Below, in pieces: positions 11,034 to 15,616 of a DNA stretch of 45,988 nucleotides (the first letter of the stretch is position 1; every line of letters begins with the position of its first letter). Location: IMG/VR virus record IMGVR_UViG_3300045988_087605, positions 1 to 45,988 of that record; one strand, given 5' to 3'. Position numbers and translations under genes: made by a program. The stretch is from a virus. A model generated the notes under the pieces. That model was not told the origin of the DNA and ran no database searches. It was given only the letters and a program-made list of their open reading frames with translations.

Positions 11034-11192
11034 ATGAAAAGGCTTATTGGTTATTCGCATTATGTGGATAAACTTGTATATGTAACGGTAGACGGGGGAA
11101 GAAGGGAAATAATGAAATTAAAGCCAAGGAAAAAGAAGTTTTATAATTCCCTCGAATATTACAAGGCTATACAAAAGATGTTTGAAGGATGA
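11034..11192 (+). CDS. small basic protein (52 aa, below the track cutoff)
   Basis: MKRLIGYSHYVDKLVYVTVDGGRREIMKLKPRKKKFYNSLEYYKAIQKMFEG. Its stop overlaps ATG 11189. Confidence 0.4.
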   Translation: MKRLIGYSHYVDKLVYVTVDGGRREIMKLKPRKKKFYNSLEYYKAIQKMFEG

Positions 11193-11509
11193 TAACAATA
11201 TCTGAAAGTTTAGCGAACGAGATCGGTTTAGAGGGTGCAACTGTGTACAGTTATGTATCCGTAATTCTATCAACGGACTTTTATAAGGATCGTTTTAAGG
11301 GATGTCGGGTTAAAGGCAAGAAGTATACAGCCTTCATATCAATAAGCAAGTTAAAAGAGATAATTCCCTTCCTATCGACAAAGAAGCTGTATAACGCTAT
11401 GAACTTGTTAGTAGAAACAGGATACCTAAAAGAGCTACCATTACGAAAGCCGGGTTTAAATACAACCCGATGTTACCAACTTGTTAATGTGATCCAACAT
11501 TTCGAGTAA
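11189..11509 (+). CDS. winged-helix protein, paralogue of the N-terminal domain of 12694..13644
   Basis: 'ISKLKEIIPFLSTKKLYNAMNLLVETGYLKE..NTTRCYQL' aligns with 'LSKLFPYMSQSKIYRVIGKLEEEGYLLK..DRTTWYAL'. Confidence 0.55.
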   Translation: MITISESLANEIGLEGATVYSYVSVILSTDFYKDRFKGCRVKGKKYTAFISISKLKEIIPFLSTKKLYNAMNLLVETGYLKELPLRKPGLNTTRCYQLVNVIQHFE

Positions 11510-11935: not shown

Positions 11936-12697
11936 ATGAAAGAATTAGTTTTTAAAGGAGAATCAAATCAAGTTTTAACCAACAGCTTATTGGTAGCTGA
12001 TAAGTTCGGGAAAAACCACAAGCATGTATTAGACGCTATAAGAGAGTTAATTAGTAGCGCCGAAAAATCGGCTGTACTAAAAATGTTTGTTCCATCTACT
12101 TATATAGCATCTAACAATAAAGAAAACCCGATGTTCATAATGAATAGAGACGGTTTTACGTTGTTGGCGATGGGCTTTACCGGAGAAAAGGCGCTGCAAT
12201 TTAAATTGGAGTACATTAACGCCTTTAATAAAATGGAGGAAGCTATTAAGAACGGAGGTTTTAACGTTCCTAAATCGTTCCGTGAAGCATTATTGCTTGC
12301 TGCCGAACAGCAAGAAGTTATAGAGAATCAGCAAAAGCAGATCGAAGAAAAAAACGCAAAGATCGAAGCTGATAAGCCGAAGGTTTTATTCAGTGAAGCG
12401 GTATCCGCATCTAACAAATCTATTTTAGTGCGTGAACTTGCAAAACTTATCGCCCAAAACGGTTATCAGATCGGGGAAAAGCAGCTATACGAGCGATTGA
12501 GGAAAGCCGGATACCTTTGCAGTTCGGGTGAGTCGTATAATCAACCTACGCAAACATACATGAATATGGGCTTATTTCATTTGAAGAAAACAAGCGTTAT
12601 TTGTGACGGGGAAAGTAAGGTTTATACCGTTACCAAAGTGACACCGAAAGGACAGATATACTTCATTAATAAGTTTTTAGGGAGGGGAATGAAATGA
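11936..12697 (+). CDS. Rha-family regulator with C-terminal KilAC antirepressor domain
   Basis: N-terminal 'NQVLTNSLLVADKFGKNHKHVLDAIRELI' is Phage_pRha-like. C-terminal 'KPKVLFSEAVSASNKSILVRELAKLI..GEKQLYERLRKAGYL' is KilAC/ANT-like. Confidence 0.75.
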   Translation: MKELVFKGESNQVLTNSLLVADKFGKNHKHVLDAIRELISSAEKSAVLKMFVPSTYIASNNKENPMFIMNRDGFTLLAMGFTGEKALQFKLEYINAFNKMEEAIKNGGFNVPKSFREALLLAAEQQEVIENQQKQIEEKNAKIEADKPKVLFSEAVSASNKSILVRELAKLIAQNGYQIGEKQLYERLRKAGYLCSSGESYNQPTQTYMNMGLFHLKKTSVICDGESKVYTVTKVTPKGQIYFINKFLGRGMK

Positions 12698-13644
12698 CGC
12701 ATTGTTTTGACGATAAAGTAGCAACAAAGTTAGGAGTTGAAGCGGCATGCGTGTTGCATAACTTCGCTTTTTGGATAAACAAGAATATAGCCGATAACCA
12801 TAATTATTTTGAGGGTAGATATTGGACTTATAACACAAGGGAAGCGTTATCTAAACTATTCCCGTACATGAGCCAATCTAAGATATACAGAGTAATAGGA
12901 AAGTTAGAGGAAGAAGGTTATTTGTTGAAGGGGAATTTTAATAAATCTGGTATAGATAGAACAACGTGGTACGCATTAACAGATAAGTGTATAAAGTTCC
13001 TTTTTGAGTGCGGTTATACGCTTATAGGCTATTCTGAGCCGATTTTGCAAAATTGCAAAATGCAAGTTGCAGAAATGAACAATGCAAGTTGCAGAAATGA
13101 ACAAACAATACCAGATAGTATATATACAGATAGTTATACTAAATCTCCTACCGGAGATTATAGTATAGCCACGCACGAAGAATCTGTTTTGTTCCCGGTT
13201 GAAAAGAAACCTTTAGCCTCAGAGATATTCGGCTTTACTGCAAAAGCCTTAGATGTGACTAAGAAAGTGATAGAGCGAACAGATAGTTTTTTCGATCAGC
13301 TAACATTCCCGTTCGAGTCGGAGGAATTTAAAAAAGCCTTTTATGTGCTAATGACTCAACCAAAGTGGCGGGTAAAGACTAAGACTCTAACAGCTATGCA
13401 AGCAAACCTAAACGAGATTGCGCAATTTGAAGAAGGTTTTGCCATGCTATTGATAAATCAGAGCATATCTAAGGGATGGGCATCACTGGTATACGAGTCA
13501 ACGCCAAAACAGTATATGCAATGGCTACGGGAAAAGACGGGAGTCTCCGGAAATACACAGCCTGCAAACAATACTAAATCGTATTTTCAGAGTGACGAAC
13601 AGCGCAGGATGTATCAGTCTTATTTAACGGAGGACTTTACATAG
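12694..13644 (+). CDS. putative replication initiator (N-terminal wHTH; ori-like iterons inside the gene)
   Basis: ATGA overlap with the upstream gene. wHTH domain and internal DNA repeats at 13045-13167, in a lambda-O-like arrangement. Confidence 0.45.
   Translation: MTHCFDDKVATKLGVEAACVLHNFAFWINKNIADNHNYFEGRYWTYNTREALSKLFPYMSQSKIYRVIGKLEEEGYLLKGNFNKSGIDRTTWYALTDKCIKFLFECGYTLIGYSEPILQNCKMQVAEMNNASCRNEQTIPDSIYTDSYTKSPTGDYSIATHEESVLFPVEKKPLASEIFGFTAKALDVTKKVIERTDSFFDQLTFPFESEEFKKAFYVLMTQPKWRVKTKTLTAMQANLNEIAQFEEGFAMLLINQSISKGWASLVYESTPKQYMQWLREKTGVSGNTQPANNTKSYFQSDEQRRMYQSYLTEDFT
13045..13102. repeat. iteron-like direct repeats (candidate origin)
   Basis: TTGCAAAA x2 (13045-13060) followed by a perfect tandem 22-mer AATGCAAGTTGCAGAAATGAAC x2 (13059-13080 and 13081-13102). 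Confidence 0.7.
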
Positions 13645-13694: not shown

Positions 13695-14639
13695 ATGTAT
13701 TTAGAGAAAATCGAAAATTCGGGCGGAAAATTAGCAAAATATGAAGGTTGCGGCTCGTTTATAGAGAGGAATCGCAAATTTTACGAAAGTGGCAATTTTA
13801 GAGAACTCTCAAAAGTAGATCAGATGATTTTCCGTGAATCAACGCTCCTTCTCGTTTCGGAATGTGTTGATCGAGAGAAAAGATTGGGTCATTTTTCTAA
13901 GGTTGTTAACGGTATATGTTTAGAGACTGGTTTAAAAATACCGGACGCCAAAGACGTGAGTAGTATATTTTATGCCGTTTGCGATGTGATAGATATGTAT
14001 TTCGATGATCTGTCGTTCAATGAAATTCGTTTGGCGTGGAGATTGCTTGCTGTGGGTGAACTTGATCCGTTTTTGCCAAAGGATAGATACGGAAACCCGG
14101 ATAAAAATCACTATGGCTCTCTTTCTATTGATTACATTTCAAAAGTCCTAAAGGCATACAAGAAAAGGAAGGTTGAAACGATGGAACGAGTTTCTAAGAT
14201 TATGCCGGACGAAAAGCCAAAACCGACACCCGAACAGGAAAAGATGTTTTTGAATTTGCAGGCATACAATTTTGTTCTCGCACTTTTGAAGTATAAATAT
14301 TCGGGGCGTTTCCGAATAGAGCGTGACAGGATAATAAACGAGTCTACATTTGCATACATGGAACGATTGGGATATGATATGTCGGTAGAGCCTACATTGG
14401 CGGATAAGAAAGAGGCTTTGTTTCAATTCCAAGGTAGACCCGTAAATAGCTTTGCGCAAATTTTCGAAAAAGAGTGTATTTCGAGGTTTGGGATAGATCA
14501 CGAAGCAGTTTATTTTCGTGCGGTACTGATAGCCAAGAAAAGAAAGTTATTCCAGTATTGGGATGAAATGTTAGCTTTCTCAAATGAAGGTGATAGATCA
14601 GAAGATAATATTTGGAAGTTATATTACTACATTCAATAA
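13695..14639 (+). CDS. hypothetical protein (314 aa), possibly replication-associated by position
   Basis: Track ORF directly after the initiator-like gene. No motif recognised. Confidence 0.55.
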   Translation: MYLEKIENSGGKLAKYEGCGSFIERNRKFYESGNFRELSKVDQMIFRESTLLLVSECVDREKRLGHFSKVVNGICLETGLKIPDAKDVSSIFYAVCDVIDMYFDDLSFNEIRLAWRLLAVGELDPFLPKDRYGNPDKNHYGSLSIDYISKVLKAYKKRKVETMERVSKIMPDEKPKPTPEQEKMFLNLQAYNFVLALLKYKYSGRFRIERDRIINESTFAYMERLGYDMSVEPTLADKKEALFQFQGRPVNSFAQIFEKECISRFGIDHEAVYFRAVLIAKKRKLFQYWDEMLAFSNEGDRSEDNIWKLYYYIQ

Positions 14640-14650
14640 AACCAAAAGTT

Positions 14651-14872
14651 ATGAATAGAAGAAAAGTAAAAAAGAGCGGTTATCGGATAAGGCGTACAAA
14701 ACCTTCCGATAAATTCGTTTATGTCTCTGACTCGTTAACATACGAAAGGAGAAAAAAGGAGGGAAAGAGATGTTATACTCTGTATTGCAAATATGCGTCT
14801 ATTAACTATTTGTGTGTTTCTCGAAAACAGGCAAAATCTTTAATGAAAGGGTTCTTGTTACTATGGAAATAG
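14651..14872 (+). CDS. small basic protein (73 aa)
   Basis: ATG 14651 lies 12 nt after the upstream stop. The track start at 14612 overlaps the previous gene. Confidence 0.4.
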   Translation: MNRRKVKKSGYRIRRTKPSDKFVYVSDSLTYERRKKEGKRCYTLYCKYASINYLCVSRKQAKSLMKGFLLLWK

Positions 14873-15477
14873 ATATTATTTGCGCAATAGACCCGGGTGT
14901 GTCGGCTGGTGGGATAGTAGTATATAAGCCGGGAAATAGCCTTGTTACTATCCCTATGCCACGCACGGCAAAGGGTATTTTTAACGTGTTTCAAAAAGTG
15001 AAGCGTTCCGGTAGTCCTGCAATATTTATTGAGCGTCTTTCGGTTCGTGGGGGTGACTCCGGAGGCGGGAAAGAATTTAGAATAGCAACTATGTTGGAGA
15101 ATTATAACTACCTTGTATGTTGTGCGCTCGTTCTTGATATTCCTTTGTTCCTATGTGCGCCTATTTCGTGGCAAAGTGGTTTAAATCTGAGGGAGAAAGG
15201 AGAGAAAGAGGAAAAGAAGGATAGAAAAGAAAAGTATCTTAATTATGCGATGAAGCAATTCCCACTTGCAAACGTGAAATTATGGAATAGTGACGCTATA
15301 TGTATTTTACGCTTCGCACAAATGAAGATGATTTGTGATGTAGATTGGTTTTCAAGTAACATGCAGAACGAAAACAGTACGGAAATATCATTTTCTTCCC
15401 CTCTGTTGGACGATAGTATTAAATTCGTGGAAAGATATGGGTTCAAAAGAAAACGATCTAAAAAACGATCTAATTGA
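14863..15477 (+). CDS. RuvC-like Holliday junction resolvase
   Basis: 'IICAIDPGVSAGG', 'IFIERL' and 'NSDAICILRFA' fit the RuvC acidic-residue motifs. ATG 14863 (MEIDIICAID) is preferred over track start 14812. Confidence 0.65.
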   Translation: MEIDIICAIDPGVSAGGIVVYKPGNSLVTIPMPRTAKGIFNVFQKVKRSGSPAIFIERLSVRGGDSGGGKEFRIATMLENYNYLVCCALVLDIPLFLCAPISWQSGLNLREKGEKEEKKDRKEKYLNYAMKQFPLANVKLWNSDAICILRFAQMKMICDVDWFSSNMQNENSTEISFSSPLLDDSIKFVERYGFKRKRSKKRSN

Positions 15478-15616
15478 ATCGGTGAAAGAATTGAGAAGCG
15501 CACAGAAGCGATTTGAGCGATTCGGGGAGAGATACAGAGAGAGGAAAGAAAAGGCGGAAAAGAAAGTAGATGAAATTCTGTCGGTTATCGAAGATAAGCA
15601 ACTATCTATTTTCTAA
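15437..15616 (+). CDS. small coiled-coil protein (59 aa, below the track cutoff)
   Basis: MGSKENDLKNDLIESVKELRSAQKRFERFGERYRERKEKAEKKVDEILSVIEDKQLSIF. It overlaps the resolvase 3' end by 41 nt and ends before a terminator. Confidence 0.4.
   Translation: MGSKENDLKNDLIESVKELRSAQKRFERFGERYRERKEKAEKKVDEILSVIEDKQLSIF

What the first reader, a model, noticed from the sequence alone, without database searches (positions are those of the whole stretch)
13045..13167. Ori-like iteron cluster embedded in the inter-domain linker of the initiator-like gene
Several DNA repeats lie inside CDS 12694..13644. TTGCAAAA occurs twice (13045-13060). A perfect tandem 22-mer, AATGCAAGTTGCAGAAATGAAC, follows at 13059-13080 and 13081-13102. 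CAGATAGT then occurs twice (13112-13119 and 13127-13134) around a TATATA tract. Last is a 33-nt imperfect palindrome at 13135-13167, with arms tatactaaatctcc / ggagattatagtata. Because 22 is not a multiple of 3, the two iterons are translated in different frames ('MQVAEMN' versus 'ASCRNEQ'). The repeat is therefore maintained at the DNA level, not the protein level. Iterons, an A/T tract and a palindrome inside the initiator gene are the classic lambda O/ori layout. The N-terminal wHTH of this protein, and its stand-alone paralogue 11189..11509, are candidate iteron binders.
Basis: partly seen in the sequence, partly recalled or inferred. Interest (0 to 1): 0.6.

Follow-up and report, generated by a model that had tools for sequence, protein, structure and literature searches.

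The report
Replication origin inside phage initiator gene
The repeats are real and most likely mark this Bacteroides fragilis phage's replication start site, placed inside its initiator gene as in phage lambda; the design is known, but a strongly conserved DNA hairpin sits at its edge.

Summary
The 22-nt tandem repeat at 13045-13104 is the best tandem repeat in this complete 46-kb phage genome (B124-14/Barc2635 group).

Gene 12694..13644 matches phage families named "replication initiation protein" and "O-like". Its model shows a winged-helix domain (aa 1-113), a disordered linker (aa 114-170) and a helical C-domain. The whole repeat module (13042-13167, aa 117-158) lies in the linker.

Among 43 relatives there are three unrelated N-terminal domains, and a more distant homologue has a fourth. 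Each carries its own dyad-symmetric repeats, then an AT tract, then a hairpin, at the same place.

The hairpin (13136-13166) keeps pairing through changes on both sides at 7 of 13 pairs, while the encoded peptide changes.

The best reading is an in-gene origin like lambda O/ori-lambda, SPP1 gp38/oriL or RepA_N plasmids. It probably recruits the host helicase, since I found no phage helicase, primase or polymerase.

The stand-alone paralogue does not track iteron type, so it is unlikely to be the iteron binder.

This is a new member of a known kind. This scan earlier noted a lambda-like origin in another Bacteroides prophage.

The parts
12694..13644 (+). Initiator gene (316 aa): an N-terminal winged-helix domain, a disordered linker and a helical C-terminal domain.
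   Evidence: It hits phrog_11233 'replication initiation protein' at 2e-33, phrog_678 'replication initiation O-like' at 6e-24 and phrog_6493 'DnaD-like helicase loader' at 8e-20. It has no Pfam or NCBIfam hit.
12694..13032 (+). N-terminal winged-helix DNA-binding domain (aa 1-113), 'type A'.
   Evidence: The AF2 model has pLDDT about 80-92 with an H-H-E-H-H-E-E-H topology. Foldseek matches are weak (best E 0.012) and the top-ranked ones are winged-helix DNA binders such as 4pql_B, MarR and PadR. Pfam gives weak PadR, HTH_27 and HTH_36 hits.
13042..13061 (.). Distal, overlapping dyads ATTTTGCAAAAT (13042-13053) and AAATTGCAAAAT (13050-13061). They are probably weaker or auxiliary initiator sites.
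   Evidence: (inverted repeat I9). The same ATTTTGCAAAAT dyad occurs twice, 44 nt apart, in the linker of a homologue that is 48% identical (L044).
13059..13080 (.). Iteron 1: the first 22-mer, with dyad core TGCAAGTTGCA at 13061-13071.
   Evidence: The core AAAATGCAAGTTG is conserved in the A-II lineage while the spacer has diverged.
13081..13102 (.). Iteron 2: the second 22-mer, with dyad core at 13083-13093, 22 bp (two helical turns) from iteron 1.
13105..13134 (.). AT-rich tract with CAGATAGT twice; candidate DNA-unwinding element.
   Evidence: It is 73% AT, and the richest 30-nt window of the gene lies at 13115-13144 (83%). It is among the least variable stretches across 25 distinct type-A genes (pi 0.015-0.03). 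ATACCAGAT...ACAGATA(G/A)T recurs in distant A-like homologues.
13135..13167 (.). Conserved hairpin or cruciform palindrome. A 13-bp stem (13136-13148 paired with 13153-13166, bulged A at 13160) carries the loop TACC (13149-13152). It sits exactly at the junction between the exchangeable N module and the shared C module.
   Evidence: Across 15 distinct sequences, 99.5% of cells are paired. Seven of 13 pairs change on both sides, none changes on one side only, and 0 of 500 shuffles reach the observed values. L032 and L033 have a wholly different inner stem, CTTTTTC/GAAAAAG, with the same geometry. The DNA fold has z = -3.75.
13204..13542 (+). Helical C-terminal domain (aa 171-283), shared by initiators with all four N-terminal types; candidate recruiter of the host replication machinery.
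   Evidence: AF2 model. It is shared at 69-98% identity with phages that have other N-domains and at 56% with L043.
13695..14639 (+). Conserved downstream gene (314 aa, all-helical, no known fold). It is a candidate partner of the initiator's C-terminal tail, in the position of lambda P. This is inference only.
   Evidence: It hits phrog_34953, of unknown function. It has no Foldseek match. Its type (314 versus 307 aa) follows the initiator's tail type in 42 of 42 loci.

Best explanation
Positions 13042-13167 are the origin of theta-type replication of this Bacteroides fragilis siphophage. The origin is written into the codons for the disordered linker of its own initiator protein.

Inferred mechanism:
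1. Dimers of the initiator's N-terminal winged-helix domain bind the dyad-symmetric cores (TGCAA-G-TTGCA). Two cores lie 22 bp apart on the same face of the helix, and weaker ATTTTGCAAAAT-type dyads lie upstream.
2. The resulting nucleoprotein complex strains and opens the adjacent AT-rich tract (13105-13134).
3. The shared C-terminal helical domain, perhaps with the product of the next gene (13695..14639), brings in the host's replicative helicase. No phage helicase, primase or polymerase gene was found.
4. The conserved hairpin at the right edge acts as a structure, either as a cruciform or as a hairpin on the unwound strand. It may mark the boundary of the opened region or a loading or priming site.

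Shown here: the repeats, their DNA-level nature, the domain layout, the recurrence of the same layout in four unrelated N modules, and the structural covariation of the hairpin.

Inferred only: binding, unwinding, helicase recruitment and the role of the hairpin.
For: The protein is initiator-like. It hits the PHROG families named 'replication initiation protein', 'O-like' and 'DnaD-like loader'. A distant homologue is followed by a DnaB-family helicase gene (L045).

The 126-bp repeat module lies wholly in a linker with pLDDT below 50, between a winged-helix domain and a helical domain.

The 22-nt repeat is out of frame, so it is kept as DNA and not as peptide.

Each of the three N-terminal types in 43 relatives has its own dyad-symmetric repeats at the same place, followed by an AT tract and the hairpin:
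- Type A: TGCAAGTTGCA.
- Type B: CCGC(A/T)TCCGGAAAA, in 3-5 copies.
- Type C: GGTGTGG(C/T)GAAAATCACCAC, in 3-4 copies.
A fourth type, D, in a more distant homologue (L043) has CAGTCCGAAAACGGACT in 4 copies.

Distant A-like homologues (35-48% aa identity) keep ATTTTGCAAAAT or ATTTTCGAAAAT dyads with 22- or 44-nt phasing.

In the A-II lineage only the iteron core is conserved between copies (13 of 13 positions against 3 of 9 in the spacer).

Copy number varies among relatives: 3, 4 or 5 copies in type B, and an extra copy in L019. Lambda and Stx phages differ in the same way (PMC7466680).

Hairpin covariation: 7 of 13 pairs change on both sides and 99.5% of cells are paired.

No DnaB_C match exists in the complete genome. 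Among the ORFs scanned (28 in all, chiefly those of 130 aa or more up to 26.2 kb) there is no helicase, primase or polymerase.

The design and size match ori-lambda, which is 127 bp, has four iterons plus an AT tract, and lies in the middle of O (PMC3349717, PMC7466680). They also match SPP1 oriL, which lies within gene 38 (PMC6316719).
Against: GC skew is uninformative because it is positive along the whole genome, as expected if nearly all genes lie on one strand.

The strict match between iteron type and N-domain type can be explained by linkage alone. The N modules share no homology and can only be exchanged as blocks by recombination in the shared C part.

Type A has only two strong iterons, and its AT tract is short and not exceptional for this genome.

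The type-B repeat is 15 nt, in frame, and encodes a PEKPx peptide repeat. For that type a protein-level explanation is not excluded.

Fold matches of the N-domain are weak (best E 0.012). There is no Pfam hit to Phage_rep_O or RepA_N.

I did not search the whole genome for a second origin beyond tandem repeats and short palindromes.
Confidence: 0.75

Rival explanations
1. The repeats are binding sites for the initiator-like protein or another DNA binder, but they serve regulation rather than initiation. They could act as an autoregulatory operator or roadblock inside the gene, or as a handcuffing or partition-like site. Replication would start elsewhere, or by recombination driven by the phage's Erf, exonuclease and resolvase set.
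For: The phage has a rich recombination set: Erf, a RecE-like exonuclease, a RuvC-like resolvase, a NinB-like protein and SSB. Dyad-symmetric sites are also typical of operators for MarR/PadR-type winged-helix proteins, which are the closest folds. Type A has only two strong sites.
Against: The protein's family hits are to initiators and not to repressors. The sites are always followed by an AT tract, in four unrelated modules. The position and layout match proven in-gene origins (PMC7466680, PMC6316719). A circularised phage genome without its own helicase still needs a defined entry point for the host replisome.
Confidence: 0.1
2. The repeats have no function as DNA sites. They are slippage products tolerated in a disordered, low-complexity linker. 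The hairpin region is simply the homology boundary where modules recombine, and its symmetry is kept by intrastrand template switching or gene conversion between the arms.
For: The linker is predicted disordered. The type-B repeats are in frame and encode PEKPx repeats, and copy number varies. The N/C module junction lies exactly at the hairpin. Covariation with the N-domain can be due to linkage.
Against: Four unrelated modules all carry repeats with internal dyad symmetry, not just any repeat, and all are followed by an AT tract. The core is conserved while the spacer diverges in the A-II lineage. The dyad motif and its 22-nt phasing survive down to 35-48% protein identity. The AT tract is among the least variable parts of the gene. 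Seven independent compensated pairs, with no one-sided change and a fixed geometry, are hard to obtain without selection.
Confidence: 0.08
3. The hairpin acts in the mRNA and not in DNA. A stem-loop between the two domain-coding halves would slow ribosomes, protect the transcript or bind a regulator. The iterons may still be the origin.
For: The element is transcribed as part of the coding region. Covariation alone cannot tell RNA from DNA.
Against: Not one G:U-type (one-sided) change was seen among 195 cells. That fits a duplex that must pair on both strands better than it fits an RNA stem. The hairpin lies directly next to the AT tract, in the same order as the other origin parts, in four unrelated modules. 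It has no U-run and no terminator-like features.
Confidence: 0.07

Closest known systems
Phage lambda O protein and ori-lambda (lambdoid phages, including Stx phages)
   Same: The origin lies in the middle of the initiator gene and is of similar size (127 bp in lambda, 126 bp here). The iterons are imperfect inverted repeats, followed by an AT-rich tract. Extra iterons add residues to the protein. The N-terminal part binds DNA and the C-terminal part deals with the helicase-delivery partner encoded by the next gene (P). The phage relies on the host helicase (PMC3349717, PMC7466680). From my own memory, not checked here: lambda also has a palindrome to the right of the AT tract, and lambdoid O N-domains and iterons vary together.
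   Different: There is no detectable sequence membership: no hit to Pfam Phage_rep_O, only a PHROG family labelled 'O-like'. Type A has two strong iterons plus overlapping weaker dyads, rather than four evenly spaced 18-19-bp iterons. The host is a Bacteroidota species. The downstream protein has no similarity to P. The hairpin here shows strong structural covariation, which I cannot cite for lambda.
Bacillus phage SPP1 replisome organizer gp38 (G38P) with oriL inside gene 38
   Same: The origin-binding protein binds direct repeats that lie within its own gene, next to an AT-rich unwinding element. The neighbouring genes include an exonuclease, an annealing protein, SSB and a Holliday-junction resolvase (PMC6316719). 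The same gene set is present here.
   Different: SPP1 encodes its own helicase loader (gp39) and DnaB-type helicase (gp40) and has a second origin, oriR. Here I found no phage helicase and looked for, but did not see, a second copy of the iterons.
RepA_N plasmid initiators of Firmicutes (pSK41, pTZ2162) and the PLE RepA of Vibrio cholerae
   Same: Both have a winged-helix, DnaD-like N-domain that binds iterons and a lineage-specific C-domain. [quoted passage not shown] That description fits types C (GGTG-AAAA-TCACC) and D (AGTCCG-AAAA-CGGACT) here. The best fold match is 4pql_B, 'N-terminal domain of DNA binding protein', which I recall to be a staphylococcal RepA N-domain.
   Different: There is no Pfam RepA_N hit. 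The fold match is weak (E 0.012, TM 0.50 on the target). This is a phage and not a plasmid.

Membership tests
Lambda O family (Pfam Phage_rep_O, PF04492) | Sequence match of the N-terminal domain to the family profile | tested here: not met
   hmmscan against Pfam-A found no family at E <= 0.01 for the whole protein. At E <= 1 the N-domain gave only weak PadR, HTH_27 and HTH_36 hits. The PHROG family labelled 'replication initiation O-like' (phrog_678) does match at 6e-24, but that is a remote-homology cluster name and not the lambda O family.
Lambda-type in-gene origin (works like) | Several initiator-binding repeats with internal dyad symmetry inside the initiator's coding sequence | tested here: met
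   for the window; for the relatives.
Lambda-type in-gene origin (works like) | An AT-rich unwinding tract directly next to the repeats | tested here: met
   In type A the tract is modest at 73-83% AT. By my count from the sequences printed, it is clearer in types B, C and D at about 84-90% AT.
Lambda-type in-gene origin (works like) | The initiator binds the repeats and replication starts there | not testable with these tools
   This needs EMSA or footprinting, a plasmid origin assay, or marker-frequency sequencing.
Lambda-type in-gene origin (works like) | The phage depends on the host helicase, delivered through the initiator's C-domain and a partner protein | tested here: inconclusive
   No DnaB_C match in the complete genome and no helicase, primase or polymerase among the ORFs scanned. 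The downstream protein tracks the C-tail type in 42 of 42 loci, but that may be linkage, and it has no recognisable fold.
RepA_N (Pfam PF06970) | Sequence match to the RepA_N N-terminal domain profile | tested here: not met
   It is absent from the Pfam hit lists. There is only a weak structural resemblance to 4pql_B.
HTH_36 (Pfam PF13730) replication-type winged helix | Profile match above the gathering score | tested here: inconclusive
   The type B N-domain scores 26.7 bits and type C 24.7 bits, against a cut-off of 25. The window's type A scores only 13.7 bits.

The most novel reading that the evidence does not exclude
The hairpin at 13136-13166 is a structure-specific working part of the origin, and not a leftover of recombination. 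It would be a cruciform or single-strand hairpin, common to initiators with four unrelated DNA-binding modules. It would be read by something they share, such as the C-terminal domain, the downstream protein or a host factor like a primosome or helicase-loading protein. It would also serve as the preferred cut-and-join point that lets these phages swap origin-specificity cassettes in nature.
Probability: 0.3. Interest if true: 0.6.

Novelty: new member of a known kind. Interest (0 to 1): 0.45.

Why it matters
B124-14- and B40-8-type phages are used as markers of human faecal pollution and are candidate agents against B. fragilis. Even so, the two genome papers I checked say nothing about an origin of replication or about repeats (PMC3338817, PMC7644841).

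A mapped origin with its cognate initiator would give a defined replicon for Bacteroides genetics. It would also explain how a phage without its own helicase could take over the host replisome.

The natural set of three to four interchangeable 'DNA-binding domain plus iterons' cassettes on a common C-terminal domain is a ready-made system for studying initiator specificity.

The hairpin, with seven compensated base pairs, is a clean case of selection on DNA (or RNA) structure inside a coding region.

Tried and rejected
- GC skew: it is positive along the whole genome, so it carries no origin signal.
- Promoter and terminator scan around the gene: nothing above the shuffled expectation, and no terminator at the hairpin. 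The scan models sigma-70 promoters, not Bacteroides promoters.
- Solved-structure sequence search of the initiator: only chance-level hits.
- Foldseek of the downstream protein: no credible match, so the 'P-like loader' idea rests only on position and linkage.
- NCBIfam: no hits for the initiator, the downstream protein or the paralogue.
- Second copy of the iterons elsewhere in the genome, as in SPP1 oriR: none found.
- The paralogue 11189..11509 as iteron binder or competitor: rejected as the likely reading, because its sequence does not follow iteron type.
- Iteron/N-domain covariation as proof of recognition: I first treated it that way, then downgraded it, because block inheritance of non-homologous modules gives the same pattern.
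- The antisense ORF 12976..13176 (66 aa): not pursued. I did not search it for homologues, and I take it to be a by-product of the AT-rich repeats.

Full report
**What the window is.** The window is a complete 45,988-bp virus record with direct terminal repeats. It is about 94% identical over the tested 4 kb to the Bacteroides fragilis siphophages vB_BfraS_NCTC and Barc2635, and close to B124-14. All but a few ORFs of 130 aa or more lie on the + strand, and GC skew is positive throughout. Skew therefore says nothing about an origin.

**Checking the observation.**
- TTGCAAAA twice, at 13045-13060.
- A perfect 22-mer twice, at 13059-13102.
- CAGATAGT at 13112-13119 and 13127-13134.
- An imperfect palindrome at 13135-13167.

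Tandem Repeats Finder scores the period-22 array (13045-13104) at 92, the highest score in the genome. Each 22-mer holds a dyad, TGCAA-G-TTGCA. That dyad occurs nowhere else in the window.

Upstream lie two overlapping dyads of the form ATTTTGCAAAAT. The two 22-mers are read in different frames (...MQVAEMN / NASCRNEQ...). The repeat is therefore kept as DNA and not as peptide.

The palindrome folds as DNA with z = -3.75. The AT tract is real but modest. It holds the most AT-rich 30-nt window of the gene (83%), yet about 4% of genome windows reach 80%.

**The gene.** ORF 12694..13644 has no Pfam or NCBIfam hit. It does match PHROG families named 'replication initiation protein' (2e-33), 'replication initiation O-like' (6e-24) and 'DnaD-like helicase loader' (8e-20).

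An AlphaFold2 model built on 28 homologues shows three parts:
- a winged-helix domain, aa 1-113, with pLDDT about 80-92;
- a disordered stretch, aa 114-170, with pLDDT below 50;
- a helical domain, aa 171-283.

The whole repeat module (13042-13167, aa 117-158) lies in the disordered stretch. Foldseek gives only weak matches (best E 0.012). The top-ranked ones are winged-helix DNA binders, led by 4pql_B, 'N-terminal domain of DNA binding protein'.

**Relatives.** I collected 43 genes: the window, 10 GenBank phages and 32 IMG/VR loci. They combine three unrelated N-terminal domains with two versions of the same C-terminal domain, in all six combinations.

The N-terminal types are:
- Type A, as in the window.
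- Type B, MNIITRKRNSNY..., with a marginal HTH_36 hit.
- Type C, ...GNDLICYALIYGF..., also with a marginal HTH_36 hit.

Each N type has its own tandem repeats at the same place in the gene:
- Type A: the TGCAAGTTGCA dyads.
- Type B: 3 to 5 copies of CCGC(A/T)TCCGGAAAA. This 15-nt unit is in frame and encodes PEKPx.
- Type C: 3 to 4 copies of GGTGTGG(C/T)GAAAATCACCAC.

All these units have internal dyad symmetry. Each array is followed by its own AT-rich tract and then by the same hairpin.

A more distant homologue (L043, C-domain 56% identical) has a fourth N-terminal type. It carries four copies of CAGTCCGAAAACGGACT at a 22-23-nt period, then an AT tract, then another palindrome, AGATGC-TAAA-GCATCT.

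Distant homologues of the type-A domain (35-48% identity, with other C-domains) keep ATTTTGCAAAAT or ATTTTCGAAAAT dyads at 22- or 44-nt spacing. They also keep ATACCAGAT...ACAGATA repeats. One of them, L047, has only degenerate dyads and no tandem-repeat hit in its linker. Another, L045, is followed by a DnaB-family helicase gene.

In the A-II lineage (76% aa identity) the two iteron copies share the core AAAATGCAAGTTG (13 of 13 positions) but only 3 of 9 spacer positions. This pattern points to the core, not the whole 22-mer, as the selected unit.

**A caveat on covariation.** Iteron type follows N-domain type in all 43 genes. Because the N modules share no homology, they can only be exchanged as blocks, by recombination in the shared C part. 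Simple linkage would therefore give the same pattern.

Two other observations carry more weight. First, four unrelated modules have independently kept the same layout. Second, the motif and its phasing persist across large protein distances.

**The hairpin.** Fifteen distinct versions align without gaps. For the structure of 6 bp, a bulged A, 7 bp and a 4-nt loop:
- 99.5% of cells are Watson-Crick paired;
- 7 of 13 pairs show changes on both sides;
- no pair varies on one side only;
- 0 of 500 shuffles reach the observed values;
- sliding the partner columns drops pairing to 26-50%.

L032 and L033 have an entirely different inner stem (CTTTTTC/GAAAAAG in place of AATCTCC/GGAGATT) with the same bulge and loop length. 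The encoded peptide changes along with it (SPTGD, LTNVN, STNVD, TFSKEKD). Selection is therefore on pairing and not on protein.

The absence of any G:T-type intermediate leans towards DNA rather than RNA, but it does not settle the point. The hairpin sits exactly where the exchangeable N module meets the shared C module.

**Surroundings.** The scanned ORFs (28 in all, chiefly those of 130 aa or more up to 26.2 kb) include an Erf-like annealing protein, a RecE-like exonuclease, SSB, a RuvC-like resolvase, an HNH nuclease, a NinB-like protein, thymidylate synthase, a methyltransferase and a Rha/antirepressor. None is a helicase, primase or polymerase. The genome has no DnaB_C match. The phage must therefore use the host replisome.

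The next gene (13695..14639) is all-helical with no known fold. Its two versions follow the initiator's C-tail version in 42 of 42 loci, including one informative recombinant, BF10P2. This fits a lambda O-P-like partnership, but it may equally be linkage.

**The paralogue.** ORF 11189..11509 belongs to the same PHROG family but is only 23% identical to the initiator's N-domain. It is 93-94% identical in phages with type B or type C initiators, and only 57% identical in B124-14, which has the same iterons as the window. It does not track iteron type, so the suggestion that it binds these iterons is not supported.

**Comparison with what is known.**
- Ori-lambda lies in the middle of gene O. It spans 127 bp, with four 18-19-bp imperfect inverted repeats and a 38-bp AT-rich tract. 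Extra iterons in Stx phages add residues to O, and two iterons plus the AT tract suffice for unwinding (PMC3349717, PMC7466680).
- SPP1 gp38 binds direct repeats of oriL within gene 38, next to an AT-rich unwinding element (PMC6316719).
- RepA_N initiators bind semi-palindromic repeats whose inverted halves converge on a poly-A tract (PMC7145576). That description fits the type C and type D repeats here.

By sequence, the protein is not a member of Pfam Phage_rep_O or RepA_N. It works like them rather than belonging to them.

The two genome papers on this phage group that I checked do not mention an origin or repeats. A text search for 'Bacteroides phage' together with 'iterons' found nothing. 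This scan has earlier noted a lambda-like iteron origin in a different Bacteroides prophage, and primase-helicase-type origins in other Bacteroides phages.

**Verdict.** The origin reading is the best explanation at about 0.75 and rests on comparison only.

It is a new member of a known kind. The design would not surprise a specialist. The added value lies in the natural set of swappable specificity cassettes and in the strongly covarying hairpin at their junction.

Noticed in passing
window 13695-14639: Conserved 314-aa all-helical protein directly after the initiator gene. It has no Pfam, NCBIfam or PDB fold match. Its two versions (314 and 307 aa, about 60% identical) follow the initiator's C-terminal tail version in 42 of 42 loci. 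In a homologue locus that has its own DnaB gene (L045), this protein is absent. It may be a helicase-delivery partner in the position of lambda P.
   Followed up: partly
window 11189-11509: Stand-alone 106-aa winged-helix paralogue of the initiator's N-domain (23% identical, same PHROG family). Some GenBank records label it 'exoribonuclease'. It is conserved independently of the initiator's N-type, so its DNA target, if any, is something other than these iterons.
   Followed up: partly
window 13279-13287: A third copy of ACAGATAGT lies inside the C-domain coding part of the same gene (ERTDSFF). The window has 3 copies in all against 0.31 expected.
   Followed up: no
window 15450-15473; L003 4312-4335: Perfect tandem 12-mer AAAACGATCTAA in two copies, where the resolvase-like ORF 14812..15477 overlaps the start of ORF 15437..15616. 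It is conserved in phage VA7.
   Followed up: no
L004 4275-4320 (phage B40-8): A 23-nt AT-rich tandem repeat, TTGATTTATTAAATTTAGTTTG, in two copies. It lies in the gap between the resolvase gene and the Rha-like gene of B40-8.
   Followed up: no
L001 296-949 (phage B124-14): B124-14 carries a 'DNA invertase' gene and a small 'mismatch repair' ORF upstream of the initiator gene. In the same place the window has the full-length Rha/KilAC antirepressor gene, and B124-14 keeps only a 168-nt antirepressor remnant. The region upstream of the initiator is mosaic.
   Followed up: no
L019 1066-2007: One IMG/VR relative of type C has an extra 42-nt iteron unit, giving an initiator of 313 aa instead of 299. 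This is a natural copy-number variant of the putative origin.
   Followed up: partly
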